Of a stretch of 64,000 bases of DNA, positions 12,572 through 52,206 are shown in pieces (the stretch's first letter is position 1; each line of letters opens with the position of its first letter). The position numbers and the translations under genes were made by a program. This stretch comes from a virus (taxonomy: Duplodnaviria > Caudoviricetes). The stretch lies in IMG/VR virus record IMGVR_UViG_2837218921_000006, positions 21,395 to 85,394 of that record. One strand, written 5' to 3'. The notes beneath the pieces are model-generated. The model was given only the letters and a program-made list of their open reading frames with translations, had not been told where the DNA came from and ran no database searches.

Positions 12572-12646
12572 GGAAGGGTAGCTCAATTGGTAGAGTAGCC
12601 AAATACAAAGTCGGAGATGCGGGTTCGAATCCTGCCCCTTCCACCA
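12572..12646 (+). tRNA. tRNA-like gene with intact acceptor/D/T arms and encoded CCA but a mispaired anticodon stem
   Basis: GGAAGGG/CCCTTCC-ACCA; GCTC AATTGGTA GAGT; GCGGG TTCGAAT CCTGC; anticodon arm GCCAA-ATACAAA-GTCGG pairs poorly. Confidence 0.75.
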
Positions 12647-25382: not shown

Positions 25383-25589
25383 GGTGCGGAGCGTTTTAGA
25401 AATTTGTAACAACAGGCTCCTTGAGCCTTCCTTCTCTGAGTCCGGGTTCTTCGAGCTTTCGCCTACCAAACCCTACTCGTTCACTTGGTGTTCCGGCTTT
25501 CCGGCTTTCGCCGCTGTTGCCGAGGCTCATCCCTCTCGGCACCTCGGTGGGAACACGTTCCCGGTGATGTATGCCGATTGTTGGTTGTC

Positions 25590-35544: not shown

Positions 35545-36257
35545 ATGAAGGACAAGACCATCAGAATGATCCAACAGGAGGCAGCGGAGGCACTCTTAAA
35601 CGTGGGTGTCTCCCTCCCCCTGAAGGAGTTCCGGCTACCGTTCAGAAAACGACCGATAGTCTTTAGGGTGACGATGCGCCGCCCCTGCATGTCCGGCCAA
35701 ATCGAAATTGCCCGGACTTATTTGTCAATGGGGGTCAAAAGCTCCGATATGGAGAAATTCTCCAAGGAAGAGCAGATGGAGTTCCTCGCCAAACATGGAG
35801 GCAAGATCTGTAGGATGATCGCCCTGACTCTTGGCCGAACAGTCTATGTGAAGCCGTTGACATGGTTCGTGCGCCATTTTGTCCGCTATGAATATCAGAT
35901 AGCGGCTGTGAGGGAATTCGTCCGTCTCATGGGAACCGACCCTTTTATACCTATTATCAGATCAGCCGAGAAGACAAATCCGATGCGGCTGAGACTGAGC
36001 CAAAAAAAGAAGGGGAGTTAACGACTCACTACGAGAATTCCCATAGCCCCTTCGGATTCCTGTGGCAAGTGGCTACCGCCACGGGATGGACGATTGACTA
36101 CATACTCCACAAGGTCAATTATCAGACACTCATCATGATGTTGAGCGATGCGCCCCGGTATATCGAGAAACGAACCTCAAAGCCGGAGGCCGGAGGTTCG
36201 GCAGAGGATGAAGCCAACGAAGTAGCAGGATTTTTCAGAAGCAATCTCTTACAATGA
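35545..36257 (+). CDS. Tail assembly chaperone G/GT pair joined by a -1 frameshift
   Basis: A AAA AAG at 36003-36009; -1 frame is open into ORF 36069-36257; GAAGGGG/CCCCTTC stem downstream. Confidence 0.8.
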
Positions 36258-38988
36258 AACCGGTCGAAATAGAATTCTTGATGAAAGACGGACTGACTCC
36301 CGGCTTGAAAAACGCCGGGAGGATAGTCCGTCAGTTCTCCGATGACGCAGCAGCCGAGTTAAAGGAAGTGTCAGAGTCTCTCAAATTGCAGAGGCAGCAC
36401 GTCTCGCGCCTTGAAAAGACTCTCAAGGAATTGGAGAAGGCATCCAAGAGTGCTGCGCCCGGTGCTGAGTGGAGCAAAGCCAAAGCTCGTATCGAGGAAG
36501 TCAGGAAGGAACTCGAAGACGAGAAAGCCGGACTTGCCGAGCTTGTCGATATGGAGAATCAGCTCAAGGCTGCGTCGGAGGGAGCGGATGTCTCCCTCCG
36601 GCAGCAGCTCCGCAATCTCACTCAAGAGATAGCCACACTCATGGTCGCGTATGCCCAACTCAGCGATGAAGAGCGTGCCACAGCCGAGGGAAAGGCTCTG
36701 CAACGTCATATCGAGGAGCTGACCGAACAGGCCGGTGTCTTGAGAGACGCGATGGGCGATACCACTGCGGCCATTAACAACGCAGCTTCCGACACACGAG
36801 GCTTCGATCAGTTGACGGGAGCCCTTCAGCTTGCCATCGACAGTTTCGGCTTGGCGACCGCCGGAGCCGAGATGTTCGGAGTCAGCCAAGAGGATTTGGT
36901 GGAGGCTCAGACAAAATTACAGGCAGCTCTTGTAGCGAGCAACGCACTCAGTTCCATTCAGAATAACTTGCAGAGGCAGTCTGCACTCATGCAGGGCATC
37001 GGAATTATTCAGACCAAGGCTGCTACTACTGCCGAAACGATAAAGACTGCCGCGCAGGGTCGCGGGGTTATTGTCACTAAGGCCGCTACAATCGCACAGG
37101 CGGCGTTTAATGCGGTTGCCAAGGCGAATCCTTATGTCTTGCTTGCTATGGCCTGTGTGACGGTCGTAGGGGCTTTGTATGCCTTTGCCAAGGGTAGTAA
37201 GGCAGCTCAGAAAGCAGAGGAAGAGCGTCAGGAACAAATGGAGAAAGCGCGTGAGGAGCAGGAGGAATTTGCCCGGACGGTAGCCACTGCTGCCGGAGAG
37301 CAGATTGCGTCTTTCCTCAAATTGAAACGTGCATGGGAGAACCTTGGAGACAGTTTCGATAAAAAGAAGAAGTTTATAACAGATACCAAGGAGGAATGGC
37401 GCAAGCTCGGTAAAGAGATAGACAACGTCAACGATATGGAGAAGATATTCCGTCAGCATACGAAAGATATGATGACGGCGATCATTCTCCGCGCAGAACT
37501 GAAAGCCTATGAGACCCGTATTCAGAATGTCGCAGACCAGATGGTCGAGAACATTGAAAAGAATAAAACATATAAATATGTTCCGGCGACTACCGAAACA
37601 AGATTCGTAGATCTGACTGAGGCCGAGAAAGCGGCCATCTCCGATCGGGACAGTGCCGGAAACTTTGTAACAGGCGGTCGTGGGGAACGAAATCTCCGAA
37701 TGGTAAAAGGAGCCTCTTCATATTGGGCTCTTACTGACGAGGGTGCGCGTATTGTCACTCAGATGCGCAGGGATGCCGGTAATGCTTCGGCTTTGGCCGC
37801 TCAGAACAATGCCCGGACAAATGCCGAAAGGACTATTCAGGAATATATCGGTGAAATGAATCGACTGGCCGATCAACTTGATGCTACTATGGCAAATATT
37901 CCCGGTACAAATGTTGATCCGGATGGTGGTAAGCCGGACAAACCCGATAAGCCGGACAAACCCGACAAAGATGATCGTGTCGAGCAGGAACGTCGTGTCG
38001 CAGAGGAACTGCGCAAACTGCGATGGAAAAATCAGCAAGAGGAAATCGACCAACTTGAGGATGGTGCAGAGAAGCGTCGCCGTCAGATTGCCCTTGACTA
38101 TGAAAAGCAGATGTCCGAAATACAGGATCAAGAGGATAAGTGGCGAGAGATGCAGAACGGCACGTTGTCGCCGGAGCAAACCGAGGCTATTGCCGAGGCT
38201 CGCCGTCTCGCCAACCAAGGTATGCAGAATGCCATTCGTGAGGTCGAGAATGACGAAGTTGCAAAGAACCGGGAAAAGCTCAATGAGCTGCTTGAGCAGT
38301 ATAAGGACTATGATCAACGCCGCAGGGATATAGAATCATCCTATAAAGCCGATATGGAAACCCTCAATGCTGAACTCGCCCGGCTTGAATCGGAGGGATT
38401 GGACACCACCGAAATCAAGTCGGCAATATCAGCCCGCGAACAGGCTTACCGTTCCTCTATTTCATCGCTTGAGGGAGAAATATTGCAGGCAAGCGATTTC
38501 TATGACAAACTGTTCGGCACGGTATCCGACCGAGGATATAAAGTCCTCAAGGATTTCTATGCACAGGCAAAGGAGACTCTTGAGAATGCAAAGGTTGACG
38601 GCGACGGTGTCGAAATAACCATCCCGGTAAAGGATGCCGACGGCAAGTTTGTAAAGAAGGCGGTCAAAATAACAGTCGATGAGTACCGGCGAATGCTCAA
38701 GCAGGTGCAGGAAATCAAGAAGCAGCTTGAAAAGAATAATCCTTTTGCCGCTTTCAGGACTTCATGGTCTGAACTTAACAAAGCCATCAAAGAGGGAGGT
38801 GATGTGTCCGGCGCACTCAAAGACCTCAATGCAAAGGGGAAGGAAGTGACAAGTACCATACGGGGCTGGGGAGAATCCCTCGGCTCAGTGTTTGGTGATA
38901 ACTTCAAGAACTCGATGAATGAGATTCTGACCTTCTGCGACGGAGCAATGGATATGGGTACCGGCATCGCGCAGATATGGTCGGGAGA
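36254..38988 (+). pseudogene. Tape measure protein truncated by IS21
   Basis: Long helical Ala-rich ORF; last residues come from the IS inverted repeat; no continuation after the IS. Confidence 0.85.
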
Positions 38989-39100
38989 TGGAAAACCCAG
39001 GCTCGGATGACCCCTTAGACCAAGGTTGAATTGACCCCTGAAAATATTTTGAATTGACCCCTGAAAACGTTCTGGCCGACGGGGTCAATTTTATTTTGTC

Positions 39101-39886
39101 TTATCGGCTTTTTATAGCTTTAAGCTTACGGACGCTTTCGCCGGTAAGCGTGATTCGATGAGCAGTGTGGACAATGCGATCGAGTATTGCATCTGCCACT
39201 GTGGAGTCACCGATTGCTTCGTACCAGTCCAGTTCGGGGAGCTGTGATGTCACGATGATTGATTTGCGACCATGGCGGTCTTCGATGATTTCCGTAAGGT
39301 GTGCGCGTTCCTTGGCGTCGAGAGGCACCAGGAAGAGATCGTCGAGGATCAGGAGCTGCGTTTTTTCGAGTTTCTTGAGCTCCGTTTCGATTGTTCCTTT
39401 GTTTTTGGCGATTTTCAGGGTCCCCATCAGTTTGGATGCGTTCGCGTACAGTACGCGCATACCGGCCTTGCATGCCTCGTATCCCAGTGCTGTTGCCAGA
39501 TAGCTTTTGCCCGTACCAGAACAGCCTGTGATGAACAGGTTTTCACCTTTACGGATAAAGTCCAGCGATGCGAGACGCTCCATCTGATTACGATCCAGGC
39601 CACGCGGAAGGTTATAGTCAATCTGCGCCACCGACGCGTCATCGTATCTGAAGTTTGCGTTTTTCACCAGGCGCTCAATATTGCGTGCGGCCCTGTAGTC
39701 CCATTCTCTGGATAACAGCCAGTTCAGAAAGCTGTCAGGTGTCATTGTCTCGGCGAATGTGGCCTGAAGACTTTCGGAAAACGCTGCCGACATGCCGTGT
39801 AAGCGCATACGGTGCATCAGATCCAGAGAGATGGAGTTGCGGTCTTTCTCCGCTGTTATTGGCGTGGTTTTATTGTTCGTTTCCAT
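39101..39886 (-). CDS. istB: IS21 helper ATPase
   Basis: GCSGTGKS, LILDD, DAILDRIVH. Confidence 0.93.
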   Translation of the reverse strand: METNNKTTPITAEKDRNSISLDLMHRMRLHGMSAAFSESLQATFAETMTPDSFLNWLLSREWDYRAARNIERLVKNANFRYDDASVAQIDYNLPRGLDRNQMERLASLDFIRKGENLFITGCSGTGKSYLATALGYEACKAGMRVLYANASKLMGTLKIAKNKGTIETELKKLEKTQLLILDDLFLVPLDAKERAHLTEIIEDRHGRKSIIVTSQLPELDWYEAIGDSTVADAILDRIVHTAHRITLTGESVRKLKAIKSR

Positions 39887-41417
39887 GTTGTTCGTTGTTG
39901 TTGGCTGATAGTTTTATGCTCGCGGCAAAATATTCTTTACCGCGTATGTTCCGGTGGGATGGTGTCTGACGGTCATTGCCGTCAGCATCAGCCCCCGGCA
40001 AATAATCTGCATCGGCTCCGGACTCAAGTATGTCCACCATGTCGCTGACACTGTAAAGGCGTGCGTCCATTGCCGCGGCGCATCCTGACACAAGCCGTTT
40101 CAGTCCATACTTTTTCTCAAGTTTCATGATGCCACGGCAGACTCTGAAGGCAAGTTCCGGATAACGCCTGTCCTCGATGACAGCACGCAGATAGTGCAAT
40201 ACGATGTTGTCGATCTGTGCAGCGCGTGAAAGCAGTTCCGCAATGTCGCTCTCGCAGCTCCCCTTGCGTCCGGGCAGATTGTGTGACGGTTTCGTTGTAT
40301 ATTCATACGGAGTATCGTTGCGGTGATGCGTCGCCACATGGGTAAAGCCATGAAAGATGTCGATCGTGTCAGTGTCGTAGACCAGTTCCACACGTTTGCC
40401 TACATATTGCACAGGCACACTGTAGTGATGCTTGTGCAGAGTTACGTAGCTGTTACGCTGTACTGTCGCGACAGCCCGCTGTTTCATCTGATAGCGGTTC
40501 GCAGGCAATGGCCGGAGATTGTCCCGCTCCACAGCCTCAAAGAGCTGACGGCGTGATTCCTTTCGACGCGTCAGATTACGCGCGTTGAACTTCTCCAGAG
40601 ACCTGAGGATTGCTTCGTTAAGCGACTCCAGATTATGGAAAATCTGACCTTCAAGGTCTACGTACACAGACCGATACATCAGTTTTACTGCATTTTCCAC
40701 CAGGGCCTTGTCCTTTGGATGCCGCACACGGGCAGGCACCACGGCGCAGCCGTAATGCTCGGCAAAGGATTCGAAGTCAGGATTTATGACCGGCTCGTCG
40801 CGGCCACTGCGCGTGACTGCAGATTTCAGGTTGTCAGGCACAATCGCACATGGTGCGCCGCCGTAGAAACGGATGGCGTTTTCGCAGGCCTTTATCAGAT
40901 CTTCCTTCTTCTGCGTCCACACTGCCTCGCAATATGTGTAGTGGCTACATGGAAGTATCGCCACAAACACCTCGACCTTTCGTATCCCGGCTGTTGCCTC
41001 ATCGACTATTTCCAATCTGTCTCCGGCAAAATCGATATACATCTGGTCTCCGGCGCGGTGCTTCACATGCCCGATGGCGTTGGTCTGCAGCATGAACTGC
41101 CTGAGTTTCATCCCGAAAGATGCCTTCAGATAGCCATCGGGATGGCCGGTATGATACTCTTCATACAACTTCTTGACCGTCATGCCCTTTCGAGAAAGTC
41201 GCGCCGCATAATCGGGCAATAGGGCTTCAAGCCAGACCTGCCGCTCCGACGGTTTACGTTCCTTTGCCCCTGGTATGGCAAATAGTTCCTGTAGCCGCGC
41301 ATCACTCAGCGACGGCAGCTTCTCAGCGGGTATACCGCTGTCCTGATACATTCTCACATAGCGGCGCACCGTGTTCCGGGATATGTCAAAGGCACTACTG
41401 ATGCCTTTTATGCCCAT
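39870..41417 (-). CDS. istA: IS21 transposase
   Basis: IDFAG, VPDNLKSAV, PKDKALVE. Confidence 0.92.
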   Translation of the reverse strand: MGIKGISSAFDISRNTVRRYVRMYQDSGIPAEKLPSLSDARLQELFAIPGAKERKPSERQVWLEALLPDYAARLSRKGMTVKKLYEEYHTGHPDGYLKASFGMKLRQFMLQTNAIGHVKHRAGDQMYIDFAGDRLEIVDEATAGIRKVEVFVAILPCSHYTYCEAVWTQKKEDLIKACENAIRFYGGAPCAIVPDNLKSAVTRSGRDEPVINPDFESFAEHYGCAVVPARVRHPKDKALVENAVKLMYRSVYVDLEGQIFHNLESLNEAILRSLEKFNARNLTRRKESRRQLFEAVERDNLRPLPANRYQMKQRAVATVQRNSYVTLHKHHYSVPVQYVGKRVELVYDTDTIDIFHGFTHVATHHRNDTPYEYTTKPSHNLPGRKGSCESDIAELLSRAAQIDNIVLHYLRAVIEDRRYPELAFRVCRGIMKLEKKYGLKRLVSGCAAAMDARLYSVSDMVDILESGADADYLPGADADGNDRQTPSHRNIRGKEYFAASIKLSANNNEQHGNEQ

Positions 41418-41679
41418 CCCTGATGCGTGACATAGGAGAATATTCTTTTATCTTGTGTTCATGTTTTCTTTGAATTATATCCCCCGTCGGCCAAAACGGA
41501 ATTCAAAGATACATATAAAATCCCCTGCTGACATTACGTCGACAGGGGTCATTTTTATATTGGGCAAAAGGGTCAGTGATATTTTGGCTTAAGGGGTCAA
41601 TTCAACCTGGTCTAAGGGGTCATCCGAGCCTGGGTTTTCCATCGGAGAGAGAAGCTTGGAGAAGATTATATAAATTCAT

Positions 41680-42410
41680 TGTGAGGTCTGAATTTAAGAT
41701 TTTACGCCGAAACAATACATTGCCACATCTCCGGCGCTTTCGAGCGGTGACAACGGTCTGTAATGACATAGAGGATGCTGTCAGCTTGTTTCATTAAAGC
41801 CAACAATTGTTGCTGCCAACCAATAGAGGTAAGCAAAAGGCGTAGTTCTCCCATGCCGCTTGTGTTCGCAAAAGCCAACAGCAGTAGCGGTCCACCTTTT
41901 TGAGGGCAGAATACGCTTTGTGTTCGGTTGCAAATCTTTGCAATCGGAACCTTTCTTCTAATGTTACATTGAGGTCACCTTACCCTGTGCTATCCTATTA
42001 TATAATTATGCGCCAGATGCTTGGAACCTACTACATATCTCCTCTACTTAACGCCGCCACTAAATCCAAAAAAATCCGGCGTGTTTTGGCAATATACAGT
42101 AATGTCCGTCAGTACATTATGACGCGCACAGAGCGTCAGTATTTTCAATTCTCAGTAGCCGCTGACTGAGGAATAAGCCCGTTAAGCATCGCTTCCTTAC
42201 GGCGAGTTGTTTAGGGCTGGCGGTACAGGCCGCCACCTTACGGCTTCTCATAAGTTCATAGTACATCGGGTGCCTTTTCACCCGACTAAGATAATTACGT
42301 GTCGCAACGACAATTAGGCATAGCAACGTCAAAGAGCATCATTCCTAATCCGGGCAATATGGTTGAACGTGTCGGACGGATGCTTCTGCCTCGTAGCGTT
42401 ACATAAAGAT
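41680..42410. ncRNA. Candidate large structured non-coding RNA/DNA
   Basis: No credible ORF; more than 10 hairpins; TATCTTTA -7-like box on the minus strand at ~42404-42411. Confidence 0.45.
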
Positions 42411-42901
42411 ACGAAAAAAATCTCATATCTCCAAAAGAGCACAATCTATAAAGTGGTAATCCTGTATCTCAGCCATCGCTATAAATTGGAGTATAGCCAT
42501 AGCTTCCATAAGTGCAACATCAAACAACAACAGCCGGCATCAGCGTAAAGTCGGGTCTTTGCCCGCACGCCGATTATAATCGCGTTAGTAAAGTTTCCGG
42601 TTACGATGTCTGGCACACACTCTTAGGATTGTGCGTTGGTGTTCGACCCGTTTAGGTCGAATATGTTTGACGCCCACTCTTGGGTCTTGTCTTTTGGTGT
42701 GTCTTATACATGACGGTCACGGCATGGTACAGTGTCAGCCCCGCTATTGTCGTGTGAAAACACACCGCAACTACTAAAACCATATAGCCGCCTGTATGGT
42801 TCGGGCGAGAGTGAATGAAGTCTTATTAAAAAATGCAAAATCAACTACTGCGCTTGAATGATGATGAATGACGATGAATTTTGAAAGAGATTTTCGGTTT
42901 C

Positions 42902-43131
42902 TGTTGTGCAATTGTTGTGCAAAAATGGCAAAAGAAAATCGCAACCGATTGTTATTTAATCAGTTGCGATTTTGAAGTGTTGCCTTGGAAGGGCAACTTT
43001 TGTGATATTTCGTGAAACTTCGATTTTGTAAATATGCCAATATTAAATGGTTATACATTTTAACAATTTCATAAAGTCGCAAAAAGCATCATAATGTCGC
43101 TTTGATTTGTATCAACTTTGTATCAACTTTT
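42902..43131. other. att junction between integrative elements
   Basis: Tandem TGTTGTGCAA x2, AAAATCGCAAC..GTTGCGATTTT hairpin, GTTGCCTTGGAAGG core-like sequence, tandem TTTGTATCAAC x2 before the integrase. Confidence 0.6.
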
Positions 43132-43179
43132 GAACTATATCATATACCTTTGCCGTTATTAGATAAACACTTATCGAAT

Positions 43180-44565
43180 ATGGCTAAATCAGCATATACT
43201 AAATTCGTACTGCGAACCACCAAGAAAACCGGCGTTGCGCCTCTTTATACCCGTCGCGTTGGCTTCAACTCCAATCTTATGCTCCACTCTCGAATTGAAG
43301 TTGACATCAAGACTTGGAATGACGCCATTTCCACTCCCGGACGGTGGAATACATTTCGTGCCGGTCCAGGGAAGGAACTCTGCGACAAGCTTGATGAAAT
43401 GTCGGCTCTGATTGATACTATAATCAACGACCCTAAAGGTTCAAGAACGAAACTTGATAAGGCGATAGATGAATTCGCCCATAAAGAGCAACGCGAGTTT
43501 CAGGAGGCACAACGGAAAGCACAGGAAGAAGCACAAGAGCGTAAGAAAGCTCAACGTGAGGCTGAACAGCGGCGCAAAAAAGAAGAACTTGAAGCGATGC
43601 TCCGACAGCGTGAAGAATCCTTCATTGTGGCTCTTGATGTCTTTATTGATGCTGCCCCGGCTCGAACATGGCACGGCAAACCAATTGGACTGAAAACGAT
43701 ACAGCACTACAAGCATCTTCGCCGCTATATCCGCGACTTTATGAAGAAGAAGCATATCACCGATATTCGGTTTGACGAACTCAATAAGTCGTTTTATTCC
43801 GATTATCTATCCTTTGCCTATGGAGAGGGATTAAAGCTAAATACTATCGGCGACCATATCAAGGTAATCAAGACCGTTATCCGCGACCAACCGATGCGCA
43901 TACAATGTATGGCAGAAGATTTCCTTAGATGTGAAAAGCTGAAAGAGGAGTCGGAAAGTATCGCTCTGCTCGAAAGTGAGATTGATCTGATAGCAAAACA
44001 AGAGTTGCCAACCGAACACCTCAGAACCGTGCGCAATCAGTTCATATTGATGTGCTGGACAGGAGCCAGACACTCCGACCTCGAACAACTCAATTACAAC
44101 TCCATTCATGTAACAGAGGATGGAGAACGATATATCCAATATAAAGCAAAAAAGACCGATAAGGTATCGGTGGTAAAGATTTTGCCCGAAACTCAAGCAA
44201 TCCTCGACTTATACGATGACGGAAAGGCGATGCCACGTGTAATCAGCAACCAGAAGTTCAACGATGCGCTGAAAGAAATAATGAAAGCTGTATATGAGGC
44301 AAATCCGGAAAGTACATTAGCCGGATATGTTACCAAGGCATATACCGCCGACGTAGGCAATGGCAGAGCCGGACGCAAAACCGACATATACCAGCGATGG
44401 CAGATGGTGAGCTGCCACACCGGGCGCCGCTCATTCGCCACTAATATGCGACTACGAGGTAATGACCGAGATGTAATCTGTGCAGCCACGGGCCACACCA
44501 CCGAAGCATCACTCAGCCGCTACATCAAGGAAGACCGTCTTACTCGTGCCTCACGTCTAAAGTAG
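43180..44565 (+). CDS. Tyrosine integrase (element 3)
   Basis: TGARHSD, HTGRRSFATN, TGH, RY. Confidence 0.92.
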   Translation: MAKSAYTKFVLRTTKKTGVAPLYTRRVGFNSNLMLHSRIEVDIKTWNDAISTPGRWNTFRAGPGKELCDKLDEMSALIDTIINDPKGSRTKLDKAIDEFAHKEQREFQEAQRKAQEEAQERKKAQREAEQRRKKEELEAMLRQREESFIVALDVFIDAAPARTWHGKPIGLKTIQHYKHLRRYIRDFMKKKHITDIRFDELNKSFYSDYLSFAYGEGLKLNTIGDHIKVIKTVIRDQPMRIQCMAEDFLRCEKLKEESESIALLESEIDLIAKQELPTEHLRTVRNQFILMCWTGARHSDLEQLNYNSIHVTEDGERYIQYKAKKTDKVSVVKILPETQAILDLYDDGKAMPRVISNQKFNDALKEIMKAVYEANPESTLAGYVTKAYTADVGNGRAGRKTDIYQRWQMVSCHTGRRSFATNMRLRGNDRDVICAATGHTTEASLSRYIKEDRLTRASRLK

Positions 44566-44607
44566 AACTATGCAAAAGAATAATTTTTCTTTTCACCAGC
44601 CCTATCT

Positions 44608-44666
44608 ATATGTTGGTTTGGTTTAAGTCGGGTATATATTACCCGGACTAAACCAAACTGACATAT
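44608..44666. repeat. GGTTTGGTTT-TATATA-AAACCAAAC palindrome, copy 1
   Basis: ~27-bp imperfect arms. Confidence 0.8.
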
Positions 44667-44809
44667 CATACCACACCTATGATTTGCGGCTGATGTAAAA
44701 TCCTATTTAATTGGATGTAATGTTTTGTGTAATTGGAAATAAAACACTAACTTTGCACTGCTGAGAAAGGACAATTAAGCGTTTATTTTCCTTTTTTACT
44801 CATCGCGAT

Positions 44810-45421
44810 ATGAAACAAACAATTATCTCAAAGGTCAATCGCAGCAAGAAGGGCACCATCTTCTTGCCGGATAGCTTTTTGCCTATTGATACTCACTACG
44901 CCTCCAACATATTGTCAGAACTATGCAATGAAGGGAAGCTTGTCAGAGTTGCCACAGGGATATACGTTAAGCCAAAAGAATCACGATTTGGGCCCGTTAT
45001 TCCGACGATAGGAGAAATAGCACAGACCATAGCAAAACGTGATGATGCGCAACTGTTGCCAACCGGAGCGACTGCTGAGAATTATCTCGGTTTTTCAACA
45101 CAAGTTCCAATGAACTCCGTGTATCTTACATCAGGAACACCACGTAAAATAAAGATTGGCAAACGTACTCTGACTCTTAAACATAGTGTGCCATCGACAT
45201 TTGCATATAAGGGCAAGATTATGCCGATATTAGTGCTTGCGCTAAAGTCTATCAAGCAATATAATGTTGATGATAATACTCTTGACGTAGTTTATGGCGT
45301 GTTGAAAGAAAGCCCGGAGGAAGAGACATGGCAAGAAGATATAGCTCGTGCTCCGCGCTGGATTAGAAAAATTATTATCGAAACAAAGGATAAAATCAAA
45401 CGAAATGAGCAGATGGATTGA
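44810..45421 (+). CDS. AbiEi-like antitoxin (DUF6088-like)
   Basis: wHTH LSELCNEGKLVRVATGIY, LGFSTQVP; TAACTTTG promoter at 44748-44755. Confidence 0.8.
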   Translation: MKQTIISKVNRSKKGTIFLPDSFLPIDTHYASNILSELCNEGKLVRVATGIYVKPKESRFGPVIPTIGEIAQTIAKRDDAQLLPTGATAENYLGFSTQVPMNSVYLTSGTPRKIKIGKRTLTLKHSVPSTFAYKGKIMPILVLALKSIKQYNVDDNTLDVVYGVLKESPEEETWQEDIARAPRWIRKIIIETKDKIKRNEQMD

Positions 45422-46430
45422 TGCCTCGGATGCTGACCGTCAACAGTCGGCATATATTATAGCAAATGAAAAGAACATCAGCGTGGGTGCGGTTGAAAAG
45501 GACTGGTGGGTTACTGCCATTTTGAAGGTTCTGTTTTCCCTTTCCCCGGCAAAGTATATGTTCTTCAAAGGTGGAACAAGTCTCAGCAAAGGCTGGAACC
45601 TGATTGACCGCTTTTCGGAAGACATCGACATAGCCCTCTATCGTGATTTCTATCTCAATGAACTTGGTAAGGATTGCGCTAAAGCTGCAACTAACAATCA
45701 GGTGAAGAATCTCCGCATTGTCAATCGTGATTATATACTTGGCGAGTTCGCAAAGGAATTGGAATCGAAACTTATAGAATCCGGTTTAGGCGAATGCAAG
45801 GTAGTACCGATAACCACAAAGAAGGACGGTTCGCCAATCGACCACGACAGCGATCCGGTAATCATAGAGATTCACTATCCGGTCAAAGTTGACTCTGATG
45901 CGTATGTGCGTCCCGTAGTCAAGATTGAGATAAGTTGTCTTTCGATGAAAGAACCGTTTGAAGTCAAGCGCATATCATCACTCGTTGGCAATGCTTTCCC
46001 GGAGATTGACGGTGAGACATTTGCCGAAATACCGACCATAACACCGACACGCACATTCCTTGAAAAAGCCTTTCTGCTCAATGAGGAATACCAGCGTCGT
46101 TCACCTCGCTCCGACCGCATGAGCCGCCATCTTTATGATTTGGAGCGACTGATGGACACTGCTTTTGCAGAAGCCGCACTCTCCGACATGGAATTATATC
46201 AGGAAATCATCGCCCATCGCCAACGATTCTATCATGTCGGCGGTGTAAACTACGAGCTTAACCATCCGTCAACCATCGCATTCTGTCCGACTGGCGAATT
46301 GCGCGACAAAATGCGCCTTGACTACGAAACAATGAAAACCTCCATGATTTACGGGGAGAAGCTGTCGTTTGATGCACTAATTGACCGGCTCGAACAATTG
46401 GAAAATCGTTTCCGCTCAATGCCCATGTAA
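45405..46430 (+). CDS. AbiEii nucleotidyltransferase toxin (type IV TA)
   Basis: VEKDWW, FKGGTSLSK, RFSEDID, EK, RHLYD. Confidence 0.9.
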   Translation: MSRWIDASDADRQQSAYIIANEKNISVGAVEKDWWVTAILKVLFSLSPAKYMFFKGGTSLSKGWNLIDRFSEDIDIALYRDFYLNELGKDCAKAATNNQVKNLRIVNRDYILGEFAKELESKLIESGLGECKVVPITTKKDGSPIDHDSDPVIIEIHYPVKVDSDAYVRPVVKIEISCLSMKEPFEVKRISSLVGNAFPEIDGETFAEIPTITPTRTFLEKAFLLNEEYQRRSPRSDRMSRHLYDLERLMDTAFAEAALSDMELYQEIIAHRQRFYHVGGVNYELNHPSTIAFCPTGELRDKMRLDYETMKTSMIYGEKLSFDALIDRLEQLENRFRSMPM

Positions 46431-46559: not shown

Positions 46560-47489
46560 TCAGAGGGAGCGGAGCATTTTGTCGATGCACTTTTTCTTTT
46601 GCTCAGCGCCCGGATGGACGTAAAGGTTGAGAGTTGTGGCGATGTCGGCATGGCCGAGTATGACGCTGACCGTTTTGTAATCGCAGTTGCTTTCGATGCA
46701 GCGTGTGGCGAAACTATGGCGTAGTCCGTGAAATTTCAGCGGGGGTATGCCGAGCTGTTTCATCAGCTTCATGTAGTAGTTGCGGTAGGTACGCGGCTCA
46801 ATGGGCTGCGGCTCGTTGCTTATGACGTAGTATTCGTTGTTGACGACCTTCTTAAAGGGTCGTATCATTGTCATCAGGGGCTTGTTGAGCGGTATTTCGC
46901 GGGCGGAGTTTGCGGTCTTGGGAGTATTGACGACGATTTGAGTGTGTTTGGTGCCGTCATCTTCGAGAACATAGATTCTCTCCACCGTGCGTTGCACAGT
47001 CAGCATTGAGCGTTCAATGTCGAGATCGCACCATTTCAAGCCGCATACCTCCCCGATGCGTAGCCCGGTCGTAAGGCAGACGTATATGCCGAGATTGCGG
47101 AATGTGAAGTTCTGGCTGATGTAGTCCAGAATTTTGCGGTGGTTTGCGGCTGTCAGGACTTCTAAGCCTTGCTTTTCGGGAGCGGTCGGATATTTGATGT
47201 CCCACTCGCAGTGTTGGAGATAGCCGTGCTTTTCGCCGAAGCGAACTATCATTTTCAGGACTATGAGTATGTCCTTGACGTACTTCTGACTCAGACCGGA
47301 GTTAAGTCGGTCGATTACAAACGACTGCACATCCGCTTCGGTCAAGGCGTAAAGATTCCCGAATGTCGGGATTATTTGATTCTCTACGATTAGGGCGTAG
47401 GCTGAGTATGTGGATTGCTTCACATACTGTCGCTTGTCCTTTTTCCAAAGGACAGCGAGATCTTTGATTGTGATTTTTTCTTTTTCCAT
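46560..47489 (-). CDS. Tyrosine recombinase (hsdS invertase)
   Basis: TGLRIGE, HGLRHSFAT, LGH, LYVH; adjacent to silent hsdS copies. Confidence 0.88.
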   Translation of the reverse strand: MEKEKITIKDLAVLWKKDKRQYVKQSTYSAYALIVENQIIPTFGNLYALTEADVQSFVIDRLNSGLSQKYVKDILIVLKMIVRFGEKHGYLQHCEWDIKYPTAPEKQGLEVLTAANHRKILDYISQNFTFRNLGIYVCLTTGLRIGEVCGLKWCDLDIERSMLTVQRTVERIYVLEDDGTKHTQIVVNTPKTANSAREIPLNKPLMTMIRPFKKVVNNEYYVISNEPQPIEPRTYRNYYMKLMKQLGIPPLKFHGLRHSFATRCIESNCDYKTVSVILGHADIATTLNLYVHPGAEQKKKCIDKMLRSL

Positions 47490-47548
47490 ATTCGTTGAAA
47501 TGAATTGATTAGGATAATTAAAGAAAATATCGCATCAATTCGCCCGTT

Positions 47549-48700
47549 TTGCGCTTCCCCGGCTTCACCGAGCCGTGGAAAAAGTGTCGACTGGGTGACT
47601 ATATACGCATTTTTAGCGGAGAAAGCCCCAATTGTGTTAGTTCAAAATTTGGAATAATACCATATTACAAGGTTGAACAACTAAATTGGTGTGAGAAATA
47701 TTTAGGAGAAACTCCATATCTGAGCCAACGAGGAAAGAATATTTTACCAGAAGGCTGTGTCGTTTTCTCTAAAAGAGGTGCCGCAATCCTAACCAACAAG
47801 GTCAGAATGAATCTCTTCCCGATTAATATTGATACCAATTTGATGGGAATTAAAGCAGATAATTCGTTTATCTCAGATCAATATTTGTTTTATTTCATTC
47901 TCCGAGCAAGATTAAGTCGAATTGCGGATACCTCAACTATTCCTCAAATCAATAATATTCATATTAATCCCATCACTATACATGTTCCATCTTTAGAAGA
48001 GCAAGAAAAAATAACTCGGTCCTTGGGACTACTCGATGAGCGCATAGCTACCCAAAGGAGGCTGATTGAGGATTTTATATCTTTGCGTAGAGCATTACTA
48101 CAAAACGCAATATCAAGAGGCTTATCCAAGAAGTCGTGGAAGTTGACCTCATTAAGTGACATTCTGACCGAGCGCGGCGAAAAAAACTCTGCGGGATACA
48201 ATGTTTGCTCGGTATCGGTTTCTGAGGGAGTTGTAAATCAGATAGAATATCTTGGTCGCTCATTTGCTGCAAAAGAGACAGGACATTATAATGTTGCTCG
48301 CTATGGGGATATTATATATACCAAAAGCCCGACCGGGAGTTTCCCTTATGGAATAGTCAAACGCAACACTCAGAAATTACCGGCAGCTATTTCCCCATTA
48401 TATGGGGTATTTGTTCCTAAATATGATTGGATTGGTATATTGCTGGGTTACTACTTTGAGAGCGAGGTAAATACTTTTAACTATCTTCATCCTATAATTC
48501 AGAAAGGTGCGAAAAACACAATCAACATCACAAACAGTGGATTCTTAGCAAACAGCGTCCCTCTGCCAACCGATGAAAGCGAGGCATTAACCCTCGCTAA
48601 ATGCTTGGATACAATTAGCGACAAGATTATTCTTGAAAAGTCCATATTGACCCATTACACAGAGCAACGAGAATATTTGTTATCCAAGATGTTCGTGTGA
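47549..48700 (+). CDS. hsdS: Silent inverted hsdS cassette (two TRDs)
   Basis: Begins at LRFPGFTEPW without an ATG; PSLEEQEKI; shares repeats with the expressed hsdS. Confidence 0.85.
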   Translation: MRFPGFTEPWKKCRLGDYIRIFSGESPNCVSSKFGIIPYYKVEQLNWCEKYLGETPYLSQRGKNILPEGCVVFSKRGAAILTNKVRMNLFPINIDTNLMGIKADNSFISDQYLFYFILRARLSRIADTSTIPQINNIHINPITIHVPSLEEQEKITRSLGLLDERIATQRRLIEDFISLRRALLQNAISRGLSKKSWKLTSLSDILTERGEKNSAGYNVCSVSVSEGVVNQIEYLGRSFAAKETGHYNVARYGDIIYTKSPTGSFPYGIVKRNTQKLPAAISPLYGVFVPKYDWIGILLGYYFESEVNTFNYLHPIIQKGAKNTINITNSGFLANSVPLPTDESEALTLAKCLDTISDKIILEKSILTHYTEQREYLLSKMFV

Positions 48701-48703
48701 CAT

Positions 48704-49350
48704 AGATTGAGGATATATTTCAATCAATGTCCTCAATAAATGAAACGCTATATGAAACATTGACCACGGATTGCAAAACGTCATTCAATGAAATTGGCAT
48801 TGATTATGGAGGTTTGACCGGGAAATCCGCTGAAGATTTTGGCTATGGAAAGCCTTTTATCTCATATCTGAACGTATATCAGAATCAAGTGATAACCGAT
48901 TACAATTTTGATAATGTGGAGATTAGAGACGGAGAGAATCAGAATAAGGTACGCACGGGCGATTTACTGTTTACCCTGTCGTCGGAAACGCCCGAAGAAA
49001 TTGGCTATTCCGCTGTATATATGGGGAATGCTAAAGAACTATACTTGAATAGTTTTTGTTTTGGCATACATATTCAAGAGTCTGAAATGGTGTATCCCCC
49101 TTATATGGGATACTTTACTTCAACGACTTATTTCCGTAGGAAGATAATCCCCTATGCACAAGGCAGCACTCGCTTCAATTTACATAAGCCATCGTTGATG
49201 AATATAAAATTCTCACTTCCCGCAAAAGAATATCAAATAAAGATCTTCAATACTCTCCAGTTGTTAACCGACAAAATATCGACAGAAATAGAATTGCATA
49301 ACAGATATATTCAACAGAGAATCTATCTGCTATCGAAGATGTTTATATGA
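48704..49350 (+). CDS. hsdS: Silent half hsdS cassette (one TRD)
   Basis: Starts at the GATTGAGGAT repeat; QGSTRFN; ends YLLSKMFI. Confidence 0.8.
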
Positions 49351-50620
49351 GCATCTTTGATAGAAGGTAGCCTTTCTGACTTTCATATCTTTGTAATATT
49401 GTTCTCTCGCATTCTATCTTTATCAAAACGGCTCTAATAGTGGCTGCTATATCTCTTTGCTCATCAAGCGATGGCAAAGGTATTAGCATATTAAAGAAAT
49501 CTTTTATCGAGACATTCAGCAGTCCGTGATTTCTTGCTCCTTCAACAACAATTTCTGCAATATCTTTGTGCCATTTCTTTGACTCAAAGTAAAACAAAAG
49601 ATAATCTGAGTCAATGAGTTTTTCTTTTGGCTGGAAGCAGATATAGAGGGGAGACAATACACCTGATTCATATTTGTCCAACCTTTTTACTGCGCCCCAA
49701 ATATAATCACCTGAATAACTTTTATTGTATGCGAAATCGCCCTTTTTAAGAATATAATAATTGCTTAGATTCTCACTTGCAACTACTTTGTTGAAGAATG
49801 AACATTGATCAATCAGTCCATATTGAGCTGCGATTGTAAGAATACGGTTTGATTCAATAGTGGTATTTCTCCTTGTTATGCGTGTGCAAATATCACCAAG
49901 TTGACATACTGACCAGTTATCAACATATTTCTTATTGATTCTCTGACGAGGGACATTTTCTCTTGGTGAGCAGTATACTTCTTCAACAATTGAGGACTTT
50001 AGTTTTTCCAAATCCTCAATCAGCCTCCTTTGAGTTGCAATGCGCTCGTCAAGGAGTTGTAAAAAATATGCGATTTTTGATTGTTCATCAATTGAAGGAA
50101 TAGAGACCACGAGCGATTTCAAGGATTCTTTATAGAGATGGACAACGGAAACACCTTGGGCTAATTTGGCGATCTCCCGCTTGCGTACCCCATTTAGTTG
50201 ATAGCACAAAAAAGAACCACTATCATTATTCAATCGAATAATATTTAAGTCTCCCCCTAAGAAAACATCATTTTTGAGGACACATCGTGCAGTGGCAATA
50301 TCTTCGGCAGTTTCGCCTGAGGATGGGATTATGACATCATTTGCCACACTTTTAATCAGGCTGTCTTCTGGTAAATTCGTCCTACTGATAACGTTTGTGA
50401 TATTTGTGGCAGTATACGTGGTATATAGTTCTCCATATAGAATGCATGGTTTCCCGTTCTCATTCCTTTGGTCTTTAGATATACCTGCACCTTTACTGAA
50501 TGTCGCGATTTTCCCTAATCGAATTCTTCTCCACGGTTCGGTGAATCCGGGGAAGCGCAGGGAGGGTGCGGATGTGGAAACGGGCGAATTGGAGTTTTTA
50601 TTGTTTTCAGTGTCAGTCAT
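49343..50620 (-). CDS. hsdS: Type I R-M specificity subunit (expressed position)
   Basis: Follows hsdM; two TRDs with PSIDEQ/PSLDEQ conserved regions. Confidence 0.92.
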   Translation of the reverse strand: MTDTENNKNSNSPVSTSAPSLRFPGFTEPWRRIRLGKIATFSKGAGISKDQRNENGKPCILYGELYTTYTATNITNVISRTNLPEDSLIKSVANDVIIPSSGETAEDIATARCVLKNDVFLGGDLNIIRLNNDSGSFLCYQLNGVRKREIAKLAQGVSVVHLYKESLKSLVVSIPSIDEQSKIAYFLQLLDERIATQRRLIEDLEKLKSSIVEEVYCSPRENVPRQRINKKYVDNWSVCQLGDICTRITRRNTTIESNRILTIAAQYGLIDQCSFFNKVVASENLSNYYILKKGDFAYNKSYSGDYIWGAVKRLDKYESGVLSPLYICFQPKEKLIDSDYLLFYFESKKWHKDIAEIVVEGARNHGLLNVSIKDFFNMLIPLPSLDEQRDIAATIRAVLIKIECERTILQRYESQKGYLLSKMLI

Positions 50621-50658
50621 CGGGATTTTCAATCTTTACTGTTCAACATTAAGGATTC

Positions 50659-52203: not shown

Positions 52204-52206
52204 ATA

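What the first reader, a model, noticed from the sequence alone, without database searches (positions are those of the whole stretch)
41642..42415. ~730-nt densely structured non-coding region ahead of a gene beheaded by IS21: candidate large ncRNA system
Seen: no credible ORF, moderate GC, and consecutive stems, e.g. CGCT-TTCG-AGCG, CGGTTGCAAA-TC-TTTGCAATCG, TAATGT..ACATTA, TGACGC..GCGTCA, CTCAGT..ACTGAG, AGCCC..GGGCT, TGGCGG..CCGCCA, TCGGGTG..CACCCGA, TGTCG-CAA-CGACA. There are long-range complements (GGCAGAA 41905 / TTCTGCC 42384; TACGCC 41703 / GGCGTA 41839) and paired 7-10-nt direct repeats (AAAGCCAACA, TTGTGTTCG, CCTTACGGC, GGCAATAT, ACGTGTCG, ATAGAGG). A -7-like box at ~42404-42411 points leftwards, and an ORF MNLYNLLQASLS starts at 41679 and is cut by the IS. 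Most G-T wobbles fit the plus strand, opposite to that promoter. Inference: a large ncRNA linked to the lost protein, possibly one whose complement (e.g. an RT-made cDNA) is the folded species, carried at the end of an integrative element where defence cargo accumulates.
Basis: partly seen in the sequence, partly recalled or inferred. Interest (0 to 1): 0.75.

Follow-up and report, generated by a model that had tools for sequence, protein, structure and literature searches.

The report
Large structured leader RNA, orphaned by IS21
The ORF-free stretch is a real, conserved, heavily folded RNA of about 1.1 kb that normally precedes the transfer genes of a mobile element in mouse-gut Muribaculaceae, belongs to no described RNA family, and has lost its genes here to an insertion sequence.

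Summary
Window 41642-42415 has no credible ORF, the listed stems exist, and MNLYNLLQASLS is the true start of a gene cut by an IS21-family element.

Intact copies show an HTH_17 gene followed by DUF3987 and a Mob_Pre relaxase. This is a Muribaculaceae mobilizable element that lies beside tRNA-Gln in two of the related loci.

The non-coding region is larger than reported, about 41690-42805. It is conserved in 24 aligned loci. A covariance model of its last domain hit 13 of 151 sampled family genomes, and an HTH_17 gene lay directly downstream of all 16 hits.

Covariation supports many helices and a pseudoknot about 25 nt upstream of the start codon. G·U pairs outnumber A·C 161 to 26 on the minus strand, so the folded species is the minus-strand RNA, the gene's own strand. 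It is not the plus strand or an RT-made cDNA.

A Bacteroidetes-type promoter motif at 42404-42435 points into it. Rfam, Pfam and two literature searches found nothing.

Single-sequence folding energy is only weakly better than shuffles. Transcription ends and strand could not be measured.

Best reading: a giant cis-acting leader, or a large ncRNA, that controls the element's mobilization operon, orphaned in this window.

The parts
36254..38988 (+). Tape-measure-like prophage gene, cut at residue about 911. This is the left flank of the IS and is unrelated to the finding.
   Evidence: Homologues are about 1291 aa and one source names one 'Tape measure domain protein'. The missing 380 aa are not to the right of the IS.
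38989..41641 (-). IS21-family insertion sequence (istA 39870-41417, istB 39101-39886). Single copy in the 85-kb record, with no target-site duplication between its two flanks.
   Evidence: Pfam rve, Mu-transposase C and IstB_IS21. 36-nt perfect inverted repeats. Ends fixed by comparison with the intact locus L047, and only one copy found.
41642..41679 (-). Remnant of the HTH_17 (excisionase/AlpA-like) gene: the start codon at 41679-41677 and 12 codons, then the IS.
   Evidence: Intact 107-aa gene in L047 and L033, 100% identical over these codons. HTH_17 E = 3e-11.
41672..41695 (-). Possible hairpin that sequesters the start codon: AAAUUCA (41695-41689) with UGAAUUU (41678-41672).
   Evidence: Seen by eye in three sequence types that each keep complementarity. 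RNAalifold gave no consensus on the MAFFT alignment. Weak.
41703..41888 (-). Domain A: five covarying helices (41884-41872/41867-41856, 41835-41829/41820-41814, 41804-41798/41786-41780, 41767-41764/41759-41756, 41755-41742/41731-41718) plus an H-type pseudoknot (41738-41732 with 41709-41703).
   Evidence: 42 pairs are 91.6% paired, against 33-51% when slid. 15 pairs change on both sides. Pseudoknot: 92.5% paired, with 3 pairs changed on both sides. G·U 161 against A·C 26. Coordinates.
41889..42150 (-). Domain B: a variable region with lineage-specific hairpins, including the covarying hairpin 42052-42056/42077-42081. Part of it is absent from four aligned loci.
   Evidence: Alignment. Helix 42081/42052 has 2 pairs changed on both sides.
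42150..42400 (-). Domain C: a nearly invariant core (42179-42211) plus hairpins, and a 5' stem (42399-42395/42312-42308 and 42371-42365/42344-42337) that starts at the predicted transcript start.
   Evidence: Conservation peaks at 0.82. 19 consensus pairs, 4 of them changed on both sides. Strand is ambiguous and leans to the minus strand.
42404..42435 (-). Promoter-like block P2: TTTG (42435-42432), a 20-nt spacer, then TATCTTTA (42411-42404).
   Evidence: The motif TTTG-N17-22-TAnnTTT[G/A] sits at this aligned position in 21 of 24 loci, and no plus-strand match occurs anywhere in the 24 regions. The consensus itself is recalled, not from a call.
42436..42534 (-). Poorly conserved linker between domain D and P2.
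   Evidence: Column identity 0.32-0.43. Deleted together with part of domain C (42247-42535) in L063 and L064.
42535..42803 (-). Domain D: a multi-branched domain closed by 42767-42763/42539-42535, with eight inner helices. The conserved region ends at about 42803.
   Evidence: 49 pairs are 94.4% paired, against 33-48% when slid. Covariation 0.222 against 0.168 (0 of 500 shuffles). Minus-strand G·U 195 against A·C 55.
42804..42979 (.). End region of the element: direct repeat TGTTGTGCAA x2 (42902-42922) and a hairpin (42935-42950/42958-42973) flanked by A-runs and T-runs, which looks like a bidirectional terminator.
   Evidence: D9, I3; the stem changes on both sides between window, L013 and L063.
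42980..42992 (.). att core TTGCCTTGGAAGG, the reverse complement of the 3' end of tRNA-Gln(CTG) in relatives.
   Evidence: tRNA-Gln abuts this sequence in L063 and L064. Contigs of runs X5 and X14 branch here to a tRNA-like flank.
42993..46430 (+). Separate small island: tyrosine integrase (43102-44565), DUF6088 (AbiEi-like) and AbiEii.
   Evidence: Pfam. The same 3.4-kb module has unrelated left flanks in 10 of 12 other loci where the left boundary is present.

Best explanation
Window 41690-42805 (minus strand) is one copy of a conserved, multi-domain structured RNA of about 1.1 kb. It belongs to a family of Muribaculaceae mobilizable integrative elements.

In intact elements it lies between the tRNA-proximal end of the element and an operon of an HTH_17 (excisionase/AlpA-like) gene, a DUF3987 gene and a Mob_Pre (MobV-type) relaxase gene. 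It is on the same strand as that operon, so it is the operon's 5' leader.

A conserved promoter-like motif (P2, 42404-42435) would give a leader of about 720 nt. Relatives that lack P2, and some with a second upstream motif, imply that transcription can also start upstream of domain D.

Most likely it acts in cis. The fold ends in a pseudoknot about 25 nt upstream of the AUG, and perhaps in a small hairpin over the AUG. That end would gate translation or stability of the mRNA for the element's excision, replication and transfer genes.

In this window an IS21-family element removed everything after codon 12, so the RNA is an orphan.

Shown: conservation, absence of coding signal, helices with covariation, strand, gene neighbourhood, the IS cut.

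Inferred: transcription, the two start sites, and the regulatory role and its mechanism.
For: - An uninterrupted copy at 98.65% identity (L047, L033) continues MNLYNLLQASLS into HTH_17 (3e-11). DUF3987 (1.5e-56) and Mob_Pre (2e-29) follow.
- BLAST found pieces of the region in 51 of 401 sampled family genomes.
- Covariance model R1 of domain A hit 13 of 151 family genomes. It hit 2 of 151 order-wide genomes, both already in the family set.
- All 16 hits of model R1 have the HTH_17 gene directly downstream on the same strand.
- Structure, domain A: 42 pairs, 91.6% of cells paired against 84.3% in shuffles (0 of 500) and 33-51% when slid. 15 pairs change on both sides (8 of 500). Covariation 0.371 against 0.250.
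- Structure, domain D: 49 pairs, 94.4% paired against 33-48% when slid. Covariation 0.222 against 0.168 (0 of 500).
- Pseudoknot: 7 pairs, 92.5% paired, 3 changed on both sides (1 of 500).
- Strand: G·U 161 against A·C 26 in domain A, so the other strand would be only 77.5% paired, and base composition is balanced. Domain D: 195 against 55.
- Promoter motif on the minus strand at the same aligned place in 21 of 24 loci, with none on the plus strand. The first helix starts at the predicted +1.
- L063 and L064 lack 42247-42535, a helix-bounded domain plus linker and P2, yet keep domains A, B and D.
- Non-coding: only 284 of 1616 pairwise gaps are multiples of three, and each of six frames has at least 7 stops in 10 representatives. 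No Pfam match for the 10 longest frames.
Against: - No direct evidence of transcription, ends or strand. The four RNA-library runs laid are assembled contigs that run on into neighbouring genes at flat depth, and could be DNA carry-over.
- Folding energy of the window's own sequence is only marginally below shuffles.
- The simple scan found no intrinsic terminator on the minus strand inside the leader. All five terminator-like sites are on the plus strand, so an attenuation mechanism has no visible platform.
- The AUG hairpin got no RNAalifold support.
- In domain D the number of pairs changed on both sides is not above shuffles (62 of 500).
- In the middle domain the strand is ambiguous.
- The sequences fall into roughly 6-8 lineages, so counts of cells overstate independent events.
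- At 0.7-1.1 kb it is far larger than known cis-regulators, which fits a stand-alone RNA at least as well.
Confidence: 0.5

Rival explanations
1. A stand-alone large non-coding RNA, in the sense of GOLLD, ROOL or OLE, or a processed immunity or copy-control RNA. It would act in trans or as a scaffold or ribozyme for the element, and its position in front of the HTH gene would be incidental or reflect co-transcription only.
For: - Size (about 1.1 kb), multi-branched domains each closed by a long-range helix, a pseudoknot, and blocks of invariant unpaired sequence such as 42179-42211.
- Domain D lies upstream of the conserved promoter-like block and is separated from it by an unconserved linker, as a separate gene would be.
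- No attenuator was seen.
Against: - All 16 hits of model R1 are directly followed by the same gene on the same strand.
- The structure runs to within about 25 nt of the AUG.
- No terminator was found between the RNA and the gene.
- No match to any large-RNA family in Rfam.
Confidence: 0.27
2. The folded species is single-stranded DNA of the strand transferred during mobilization. It would be a single-strand origin or priming site, or an ssDNA promoter, comparable to ssoA/ssoU of MobV plasmids or to Frpo of conjugative plasmids.
For: - The element has a MobV-type relaxase.
- Strand-specific structure would also be expected of an ssDNA element.
- The region lies on the side of the putative oriT that would enter a recipient early. 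The oriT position is inferred, not shown.
Against: - About one pair in six is G·U (161 of 954 cells). That is usual for RNA but costly in DNA.
- The region is 4-6 times longer than known single-strand origins (sizes recalled).
- If oriT lies upstream of mob and mob enters last, the transferred strand would be the plus strand, not the structured one (inference).
- A double-strand-type promoter motif points into the region.
Confidence: 0.08
3. A double-stranded DNA feature: arrays of protein-binding palindromes and repeats for integration or excision (arm sites), or a replication origin for the DUF3987 protein.
For: - The region is at the att end of the element.
- Direct repeats exist, such as TGTTGTGCAA x2 at 42902-42922, and there are many inverted repeats.
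- DUF3987 proteins are thought to be primase/helicase-like (recalled).
Against: - Palindromes bound as duplex DNA give no strand asymmetry, yet G·U exceeds A·C six-fold.
- Stems are kept while their sequences change and their loops vary.
- A pseudoknot has no meaning in duplex DNA.
- This reading probably does apply to 42804-42992, outside the conserved RNA.
Confidence: 0.05
4. One reading: an RT-associated system in which the plus-strand complement (a cDNA) is the folded species.
For: - A few invariant G·T pairs in the middle domain fit the plus strand.
- An RT gene exists elsewhere in the window.
Against: - In L047, read through the whole operon, no RT gene stands among the partners.
- The window's RT is 16 kb away and has its own RT-3 RNA.
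- Covarying helices favour the minus strand.
Confidence: 0.02
5. Decayed gene or neutral spacer with chance stems.
For: Folding energy of the single sequence is only weakly below shuffles.
Against: - Conserved over lineages whose neighbouring HTH protein is only 64-90% identical.
- Covariation.
- No Pfam match and no 3-nt gap periodicity.
Confidence: 0.02

Closest known systems
Large structured bacterial ncRNAs of mobile elements and prophages (GOLLD, ROOL, HEARO, OLE)
   Same: Hundreds of nucleotides, many covarying helices, multi-branched domains, pseudoknot, carried on a mobile element. The general properties of these families are recalled.
   Different: No Rfam model matches, even at E up to 10. 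This RNA is always directly upstream of one gene on the same strand and is longer. Model R1 (domain A) hit only Muribaculaceae genomes among those searched.
int-alpA RNA motif (a structured RNA between integrase and alpA genes of proteobacterial islands; recalled, not seen in any call)
   Same: A conserved structure at the integrase/att end of an integrative element, upstream of an AlpA/excisionase-type HTH gene.
   Different: That motif is small and proteobacterial (recalled). No Rfam family matched here. The two literature searches returned no paper holding the term 'int-alpA'.
Leader and CI RNA of satellite phage P4 (RNA-based immunity acting on the leader of the primase operon; recalled)
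   Same: An integrative element at a tRNA gene, with a long functional leader RNA in front of a replication-type operon. The AlpA-like HTH plus DUF3987 gene pair is typical of P4-like islands (recalled).
   Different: No small processed RNA or repeated complementary target sites have been shown here, and this was not tested. The size and fold are unrelated.
Single-strand origins ssoA/ssoU of MobV-type rolling-circle plasmids and Frpo ssDNA promoters (recalled)
   Same: Non-coding, orientation-specific, hairpin-rich regions on elements with a Mob_Pre relaxase.
   Different: Those are about 150-330 nt and fold as DNA. Here the region is about 1.1 kb with a high share of G·U pairs and a pseudoknot next to a start codon.
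Riboswitches and other structured 5' leaders
   Same: Lies between a promoter-like motif and the start codon on the coding strand. Structure sits next to the ribosome-binding region.
   Different: 3-10 times larger. No terminator/antiterminator pair was seen. No ligand or partner is known.

Membership tests
Any Rfam 15 family (including group I/II introns, GOLLD, ROOL, HEARO, OLE, raiA, retron msr, ctRNAs) | Covariance-model score at or above the family's gathering threshold | tested here: not met
   Whole window at gathering threshold: only RT-3 (25437-25579) and a tRNA. 41400-43300 at E up to 10: six chance-level hits of at most 20.8 bits. Eight relatives: only a tRNA. L086 1000-2300 at E up to 5: one 15-bit hit.
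   In L047, read through the whole operon, the genes are HTH_17, DUF3987 and Mob_Pre. The RT in the window is 16 kb away.
   The same pairs are 91.6% canonical on the minus strand and 77.5% on the plus strand.
Structured cis-regulatory 5' leader | Lies between promoter and start codon on the coding strand | tested here: met
   Minus-strand promoter motif in 21 of 24 loci. Structure on the minus strand. HTH gene directly downstream in 16 of 16 hits of model R1. The promoter is a motif match, not a mapped start.
Structured cis-regulatory 5' leader | Expression platform (terminator/antiterminator, or occlusion of the ribosome-binding site or AUG) | tested here: inconclusive
   No minus-strand terminator. 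Pseudoknot ending 24 nt before the AUG. AUG hairpin seen by eye but not by RNAalifold.
Structured cis-regulatory 5' leader | Effect on expression of the downstream gene | not testable with these tools
   Needs reporter assays.
Single-strand origin or ssDNA promoter | Folds as the transferred DNA strand and primes or promotes on ssDNA | not testable with these tools
   nic and the transferred strand are unknown. The G·U share of 161 of 954 cells argues for RNA.
IS21 family (the interrupting element) | istA (HTH + rve) and istB (IstB ATPase) genes between terminal inverted repeats | tested here: met
   Pfam. 36-nt perfect inverted repeats with internal repeats.
IS21 family (the interrupting element) | Target-site duplication flanking a simple insertion | tested here: not met
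   The left flank ends ...GGGAGA and the right flank starts TCGGAG... The two flanks come from different elements.

The most novel reading that the evidence does not exclude
A previously undescribed class of very large (about 0.7-1.1 kb), multi-domain, pseudoknotted RNA specific to mobilizable elements of Muribaculaceae. It would be comparable in size and complexity to GOLLD, ROOL or OLE. Its function would go beyond ordinary leader control: for example an RNA-based switch or immunity determinant that decides excision, replication and transfer, or a scaffold or ribozyme that works with the DUF3987 protein.
Probability: 0.3. Interest if true: 0.85.

Novelty: new variant of a known kind. Interest (0 to 1): 0.62.

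Why it matters
Very few bacterial RNAs above 500 nt with extensive conserved structure are known, and each has opened a line of work. This one is found in about one in eleven sampled Muribaculaceae species genomes (13 of 151), a dominant but poorly studied family of the mouse gut.

It sits exactly where a mobile element must decide whether to express its excision, replication and transfer genes. If it controls that decision, it would be an RNA-level switch for horizontal gene transfer in Bacteroidales.

If it is a stand-alone RNA, it adds a new large-RNA class. It would come with a ready alignment, a covariance model and natural domain-deletion variants (L063, L064) for testing.

For this window itself the result is more modest. 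The copy is a remnant whose operon was removed by an IS21-family element, at a junction that also joins two unrelated mobile elements.

Tried and rejected
- Similar DNA among phage and plasmid records: no match.
- Viral and metagenome scans with an 18-nt motif: most of the 43 stretches were chance matches. Only L033, L035, L047 and L051 were real relatives.
- The idea that the region is the lost C-terminus of the tape-measure gene cut by the IS: rejected by tblastn.
- Expression: four RNA-library runs hold the stretch, but only as assembled contigs. Depth is flat and the contigs run on into the integrase island, so neither transcription, strand nor ends can be read. In runs X5 and X14 a contig starts in the IS end, and all four runs have a contig reaching that junction, which only shows that the IS junction is real in those samples.
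- A closing helix between the 5' boundary (about 42803) and the region before the AUG was proposed by RNAalifold, but duplex energies across the relatives are weak and inconsistent. Not claimed.
- AUG-sequestering hairpin: RNAalifold on the MAFFT alignment gave no pairs, because the start codons sit in different registers. Kept only as a weak possibility.
- A second copy, or the lost operon, elsewhere in the 85-kb record: nhmmer found only this copy. tblastn found only 30-45% identical paralogues upstream of the window, and these have a short upstream spacer.
- TAGCGT at 42393-42398 resembles the recalled CS-6 box of ssoA, but it is not conserved in relatives.
- A promoter upstream of domain D could not be recognised in the window's own lineage. 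The strict motif found none, and none showed up on reading 42800-42990 by eye.
- A Python shuffle test did not return and was replaced by strand folding.
- Literature: two full-text searches. Only the listings and the starts of the abstracts were seen, and no listed title or abstract concerns this RNA. Supplementary tables of large RNA-motif surveys could not be seen and might list it.
Full report
**What is at the coordinates**

The window comes from an 85-kb record classed as a provirus. Between 38989 and 41641 lies an IS21-family element. Its genes are istA 39870-41417 and istB 39101-39886, both on the minus strand, identified by Pfam rve/Mu-transposase C and IstB_IS21. It has 36-nt perfect terminal inverted repeats.

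To its right, 41642-43100 has no stop-to-stop frame longer than 93 aa.

The minus-strand ORF that starts at 41679 (MNLYNLLQASLS) is cut by the IS after 12 codons.

**The two flanks of the IS do not belong together**

The left flank is a tape-measure-like gene that stops at residue about 911. Its relatives are about 1291 aa long. The missing 380 residues are not encoded to the right of the IS.

Comparison with an intact locus fixes the IS ends. It also shows that there is no target-site duplication, and that the record holds only one copy of the IS.

So the IS joins a Mu-like prophage (portal and Mu F proteins) to a different element. This happened either by recombination or in the assembly. 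In runs X5 and X14 a contig starts in the IS end, and all four laid runs have a contig that reaches the right-hand junction. That junction at least is real.

**The interrupted gene and its element**

A scan for an 18-nt motif found metagenome contigs L047 and L033. They are 98.65% identical over 41644-42975 and are uninterrupted.

In L047 the ORF continues into a 107-aa protein with an HTH_17 domain (E = 3e-11). A 515-aa DUF3987 protein (1.5e-56) and a Mob_Pre relaxase (2e-29) follow, all on the same strand. This is the gene set of a small mobilizable integrative element.

In relatives L063 and L064 the end of the element abuts tRNA-Gln(CTG). The window's TTGCCTTGGAAGG (42980-42992) is the reverse complement of that tRNA's 3' end.

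The integrase that follows in the window (43102-44565), together with DUF6088 and AbiEii, is a separate module of about 3.4 kb. It occurs with unrelated left flanks in 10 of the 12 other loci where that boundary is present. Contigs of runs X5 and X14 branch exactly at the att core, one of them to a tRNA-like flank.

**The non-coding region is conserved and larger than reported**

BLAST of 41644-42975 against one genome per species found pieces in 51 of 401 sampled genomes of the family of locus L013. L013 is a Duncaniella MAG, and the relatives' record titles name Muribaculaceae.

I collected 24 loci that also hold the HTH gene. In each of them the 1.2-1.4 kb upstream of the gene has no positionally conserved ORF.

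Column identity to the window is 0.66-0.72 over 41644-41850. It peaks at 0.82 at 42184-42213, is 0.6-0.7 at 42334-42423, and is 0.5-0.6 at 42544-42780. It falls away after about 42803.

The region is not coding. Only 284 of 1616 pairwise gap runs are multiples of three. Every one of the six frames has at least 7 stops in each of 10 representatives. The 10 longest frames of the window have no Pfam match; the best E-value is 0.1.

**Structure**

Folding energy of the window's sequence alone is a weak signal:

| Region | Strand | z-score | Shuffles that fold as well |
|---|---|---|---|
| 41642-42415 | plus | -2.35 | 0 of 20 |
| 41642-42415 | minus | -2.11 | 0 of 20 |
| 41690-41900 | minus | -1.59 | 15 of 200 |
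| 42525-42812 | minus | -1.92 | 6 of 200 |

The comparative signal is strong.

- **Domain A (41690-41900; 23 sequences).** The RNAalifold consensus plus one hairpin added by eye gives 42 pairs. 91.6% of cells are paired, against 84.3% in column shuffles (0 of 500 reach it) and 33-51% when the partners are slid. 15 pairs change on both sides (8 of 500). The covariation score is 0.371 against 0.250.
- **Pseudoknot.** The loop of the last hairpin pairs with a stretch downstream (41738-41732 with 41709-41703), an H-type pseudoknot. It is 92.5% paired, and 3 pairs change on both sides (1 of 500). One lineage (L076) carries three compensated changes.
- **Domain D (42525-42812; 15 sequences without large inserts, of the 23 that I had).** 49 pairs in nine helices are closed by a long-range helix. 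94.4% are paired, against 33-48% when slid. Covariation is 0.222 against 0.168 (0 of 500). The count of pairs changed on both sides (10) is not above shuffles (62 of 500).
- **Middle part (42130-42400).** It holds near-invariant sequence and lineage-specific hairpins. The tool's consensus has only 19 pairs, 4 of them changed on both sides.

The sequences fall into perhaps 6-8 lineages, so cell counts overstate independent events. No phylogeny-aware test was available.

**Which strand folds**

In domain A the same 42 pairs hold 161 G·U cells and 26 A·C cells on the minus strand. They are therefore 91.6% canonical on the minus strand and 77.5% on the plus strand. Base composition is balanced.

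In domain D the minus-strand consensus has 195 G·U against 55 A·C. Single helices are one-sided: 17 against 3, 24 against 4, and 25 against 1.

In the middle domain a few invariant G·T pairs fit the plus strand. A whole-region consensus of 17 sequences again leans to the minus strand.

The folded strand is the strand of the HTH gene. Duplex-DNA sites would show no such asymmetry. For ssDNA, a share of one G·T in six pairs would be costly.

**Transcription signals**

The recalled Bacteroidetes promoter consensus is TTTG, about 19-21 nt, then TAnnTTTG. Written as TTTG-N17-22-TAnnTTT[G/A], it matches the minus strand at the position of window 42404-42435 in 21 of 24 loci. It matches the plus strand nowhere in the 24 regions of 1300 nt.

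The variable bases fall in the spacer. The first consensus helix begins at the predicted start, about 42398.

Five loci have a second minus-strand match about 80 nt upstream of domain D, and L064 has one at another place further upstream.

L063 and L064 lack 42247-42535. That stretch is one helix-bounded domain plus the linker and the promoter-like block. They keep domains A and B, part of C, and D. In them the gene must be transcribed from upstream of domain D.

The simple scan found no terminator on the minus strand inside the region. A hairpin at 42935-42973 with runs of A and T on its two sides sits between the tRNA side and the RNA. Its stem changes on both sides among window, L013 and L063.

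Direct expression data could not be obtained. The runs are kept only as contigs.

**Distribution and linkage**

A covariance model of domain A (R1; 221 positions, 42 pairs) gave 16 hits in 13 of 151 sampled genomes of the family. In an order-wide sample it hit 2 of 151 genomes, both family members already known. It was not found in the other 149 genomes searched.

All 16 hits have the HTH_17 gene directly downstream on the same strand.

The 85-kb record holds only this copy.

**Known families**

No Rfam family reaches threshold in the window or in eight relatives. Permissive scans give only chance-level hits.

Two full-text searches gave no paper on such an RNA. I saw the listings and the starts of the abstracts only. 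Supplementary tables of motif surveys could not be consulted.

**How it most likely works**

*Shown:* a conserved minus-strand structured RNA region of about 1.1 kb, always in front of the HTH_17-DUF3987(-Mob) genes, ending in a pseudoknot 24 nt before the AUG.

*Inferred:*
- It is transcribed from P2, giving a leader of about 720 nt, and in some or all elements also from upstream of domain D.
- It acts in cis on the translation or stability of the operon mRNA. A small A/U-rich hairpin that would cover the AUG is compatible with three sequence types, but RNAalifold did not support it.
- I put this reading at about 0.5.

*Rivals:*
- A stand-alone or processed large RNA acting in trans, about 0.27. 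Its size, its domain architecture and the separate position of domain D fit this equally well.
- The ssDNA rival, about 0.08.
- The duplex-DNA rival, about 0.05.
- The RT/cDNA idea, about 0.02. It is contradicted by the strand and by the gene neighbourhood.

**Verdict**

The finding is real and led to a probably undescribed family of very large structured RNAs on Muribaculaceae mobilizable elements. The copy in this window is an orphan left by an IS21-family insertion.

Noticed in passing
window 24078-25579: An RT-3 RNA (Rfam RF03068, 125 bits) at 25437-25579 (-) overlaps the start of a 463-aa ORF with an RVT_1 domain (24078-25469, -). Both lie inside the Mu-like prophage part.
   Followed up: partly
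window 12572-12646: ARAGORN calls a tRNA with a four-base anticodon (acaa), and Rfam scores it as a tRNA at 49.9 bits. It may be an odd or frameshift-suppressor-like tRNA.
   Followed up: no
window 36254-39010 and 41642: The IS joins a truncated tape-measure-like gene (380 aa missing) to an unrelated mobilizable element with no target duplication. This is either recombination between two IS copies or an assembly chimera.
   Followed up: partly
window 42980-46430: A 3.4-kb island (tyrosine integrase, DUF6088/AbiEi-like, AbiEii) is inserted at the 3'-end sequence of tRNA-Gln. The same island occurs in at least 12 other genomes. Its left flank is unrelated in 10 of the 12 loci where that boundary is present.
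   Followed up: partly
window 46560-55026: A type I RM system (hsdR 52207-55026, hsdM 50659-52203) has three hsdS-type ORFs and an adjacent integrase (46560-47489). Relative to the near-identical locus L002, segments 47565-48075 and 50010-50591 are inverted, as in a phase-variable hsdS shufflon.
   Followed up: no
L062 2756-4186 (equivalent to window ~42897) and L051 682-1638 (equivalent to ~42446): Other copies of the region carry their own insertions. L062 has about 1.4 kb inserted in the att-proximal part. L051 has a 318-aa transposase-like ORF, named from its sequence by eye and not searched, just past the promoter-like block.
   Followed up: no
record G000:C1:8055-17476 (upstream of the window): A second, distant HTH / DUF3987 / Mob set (30-45% identity) lies in the same record. 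It has no similar leader and only a short upstream spacer.
   Followed up: partly
window 42179-42211: This is the most conserved block of the whole region. It includes a hairpin whose 9-nt loop is almost invariant, followed by AUG. No conserved ORF follows it.
   Followed up: partly
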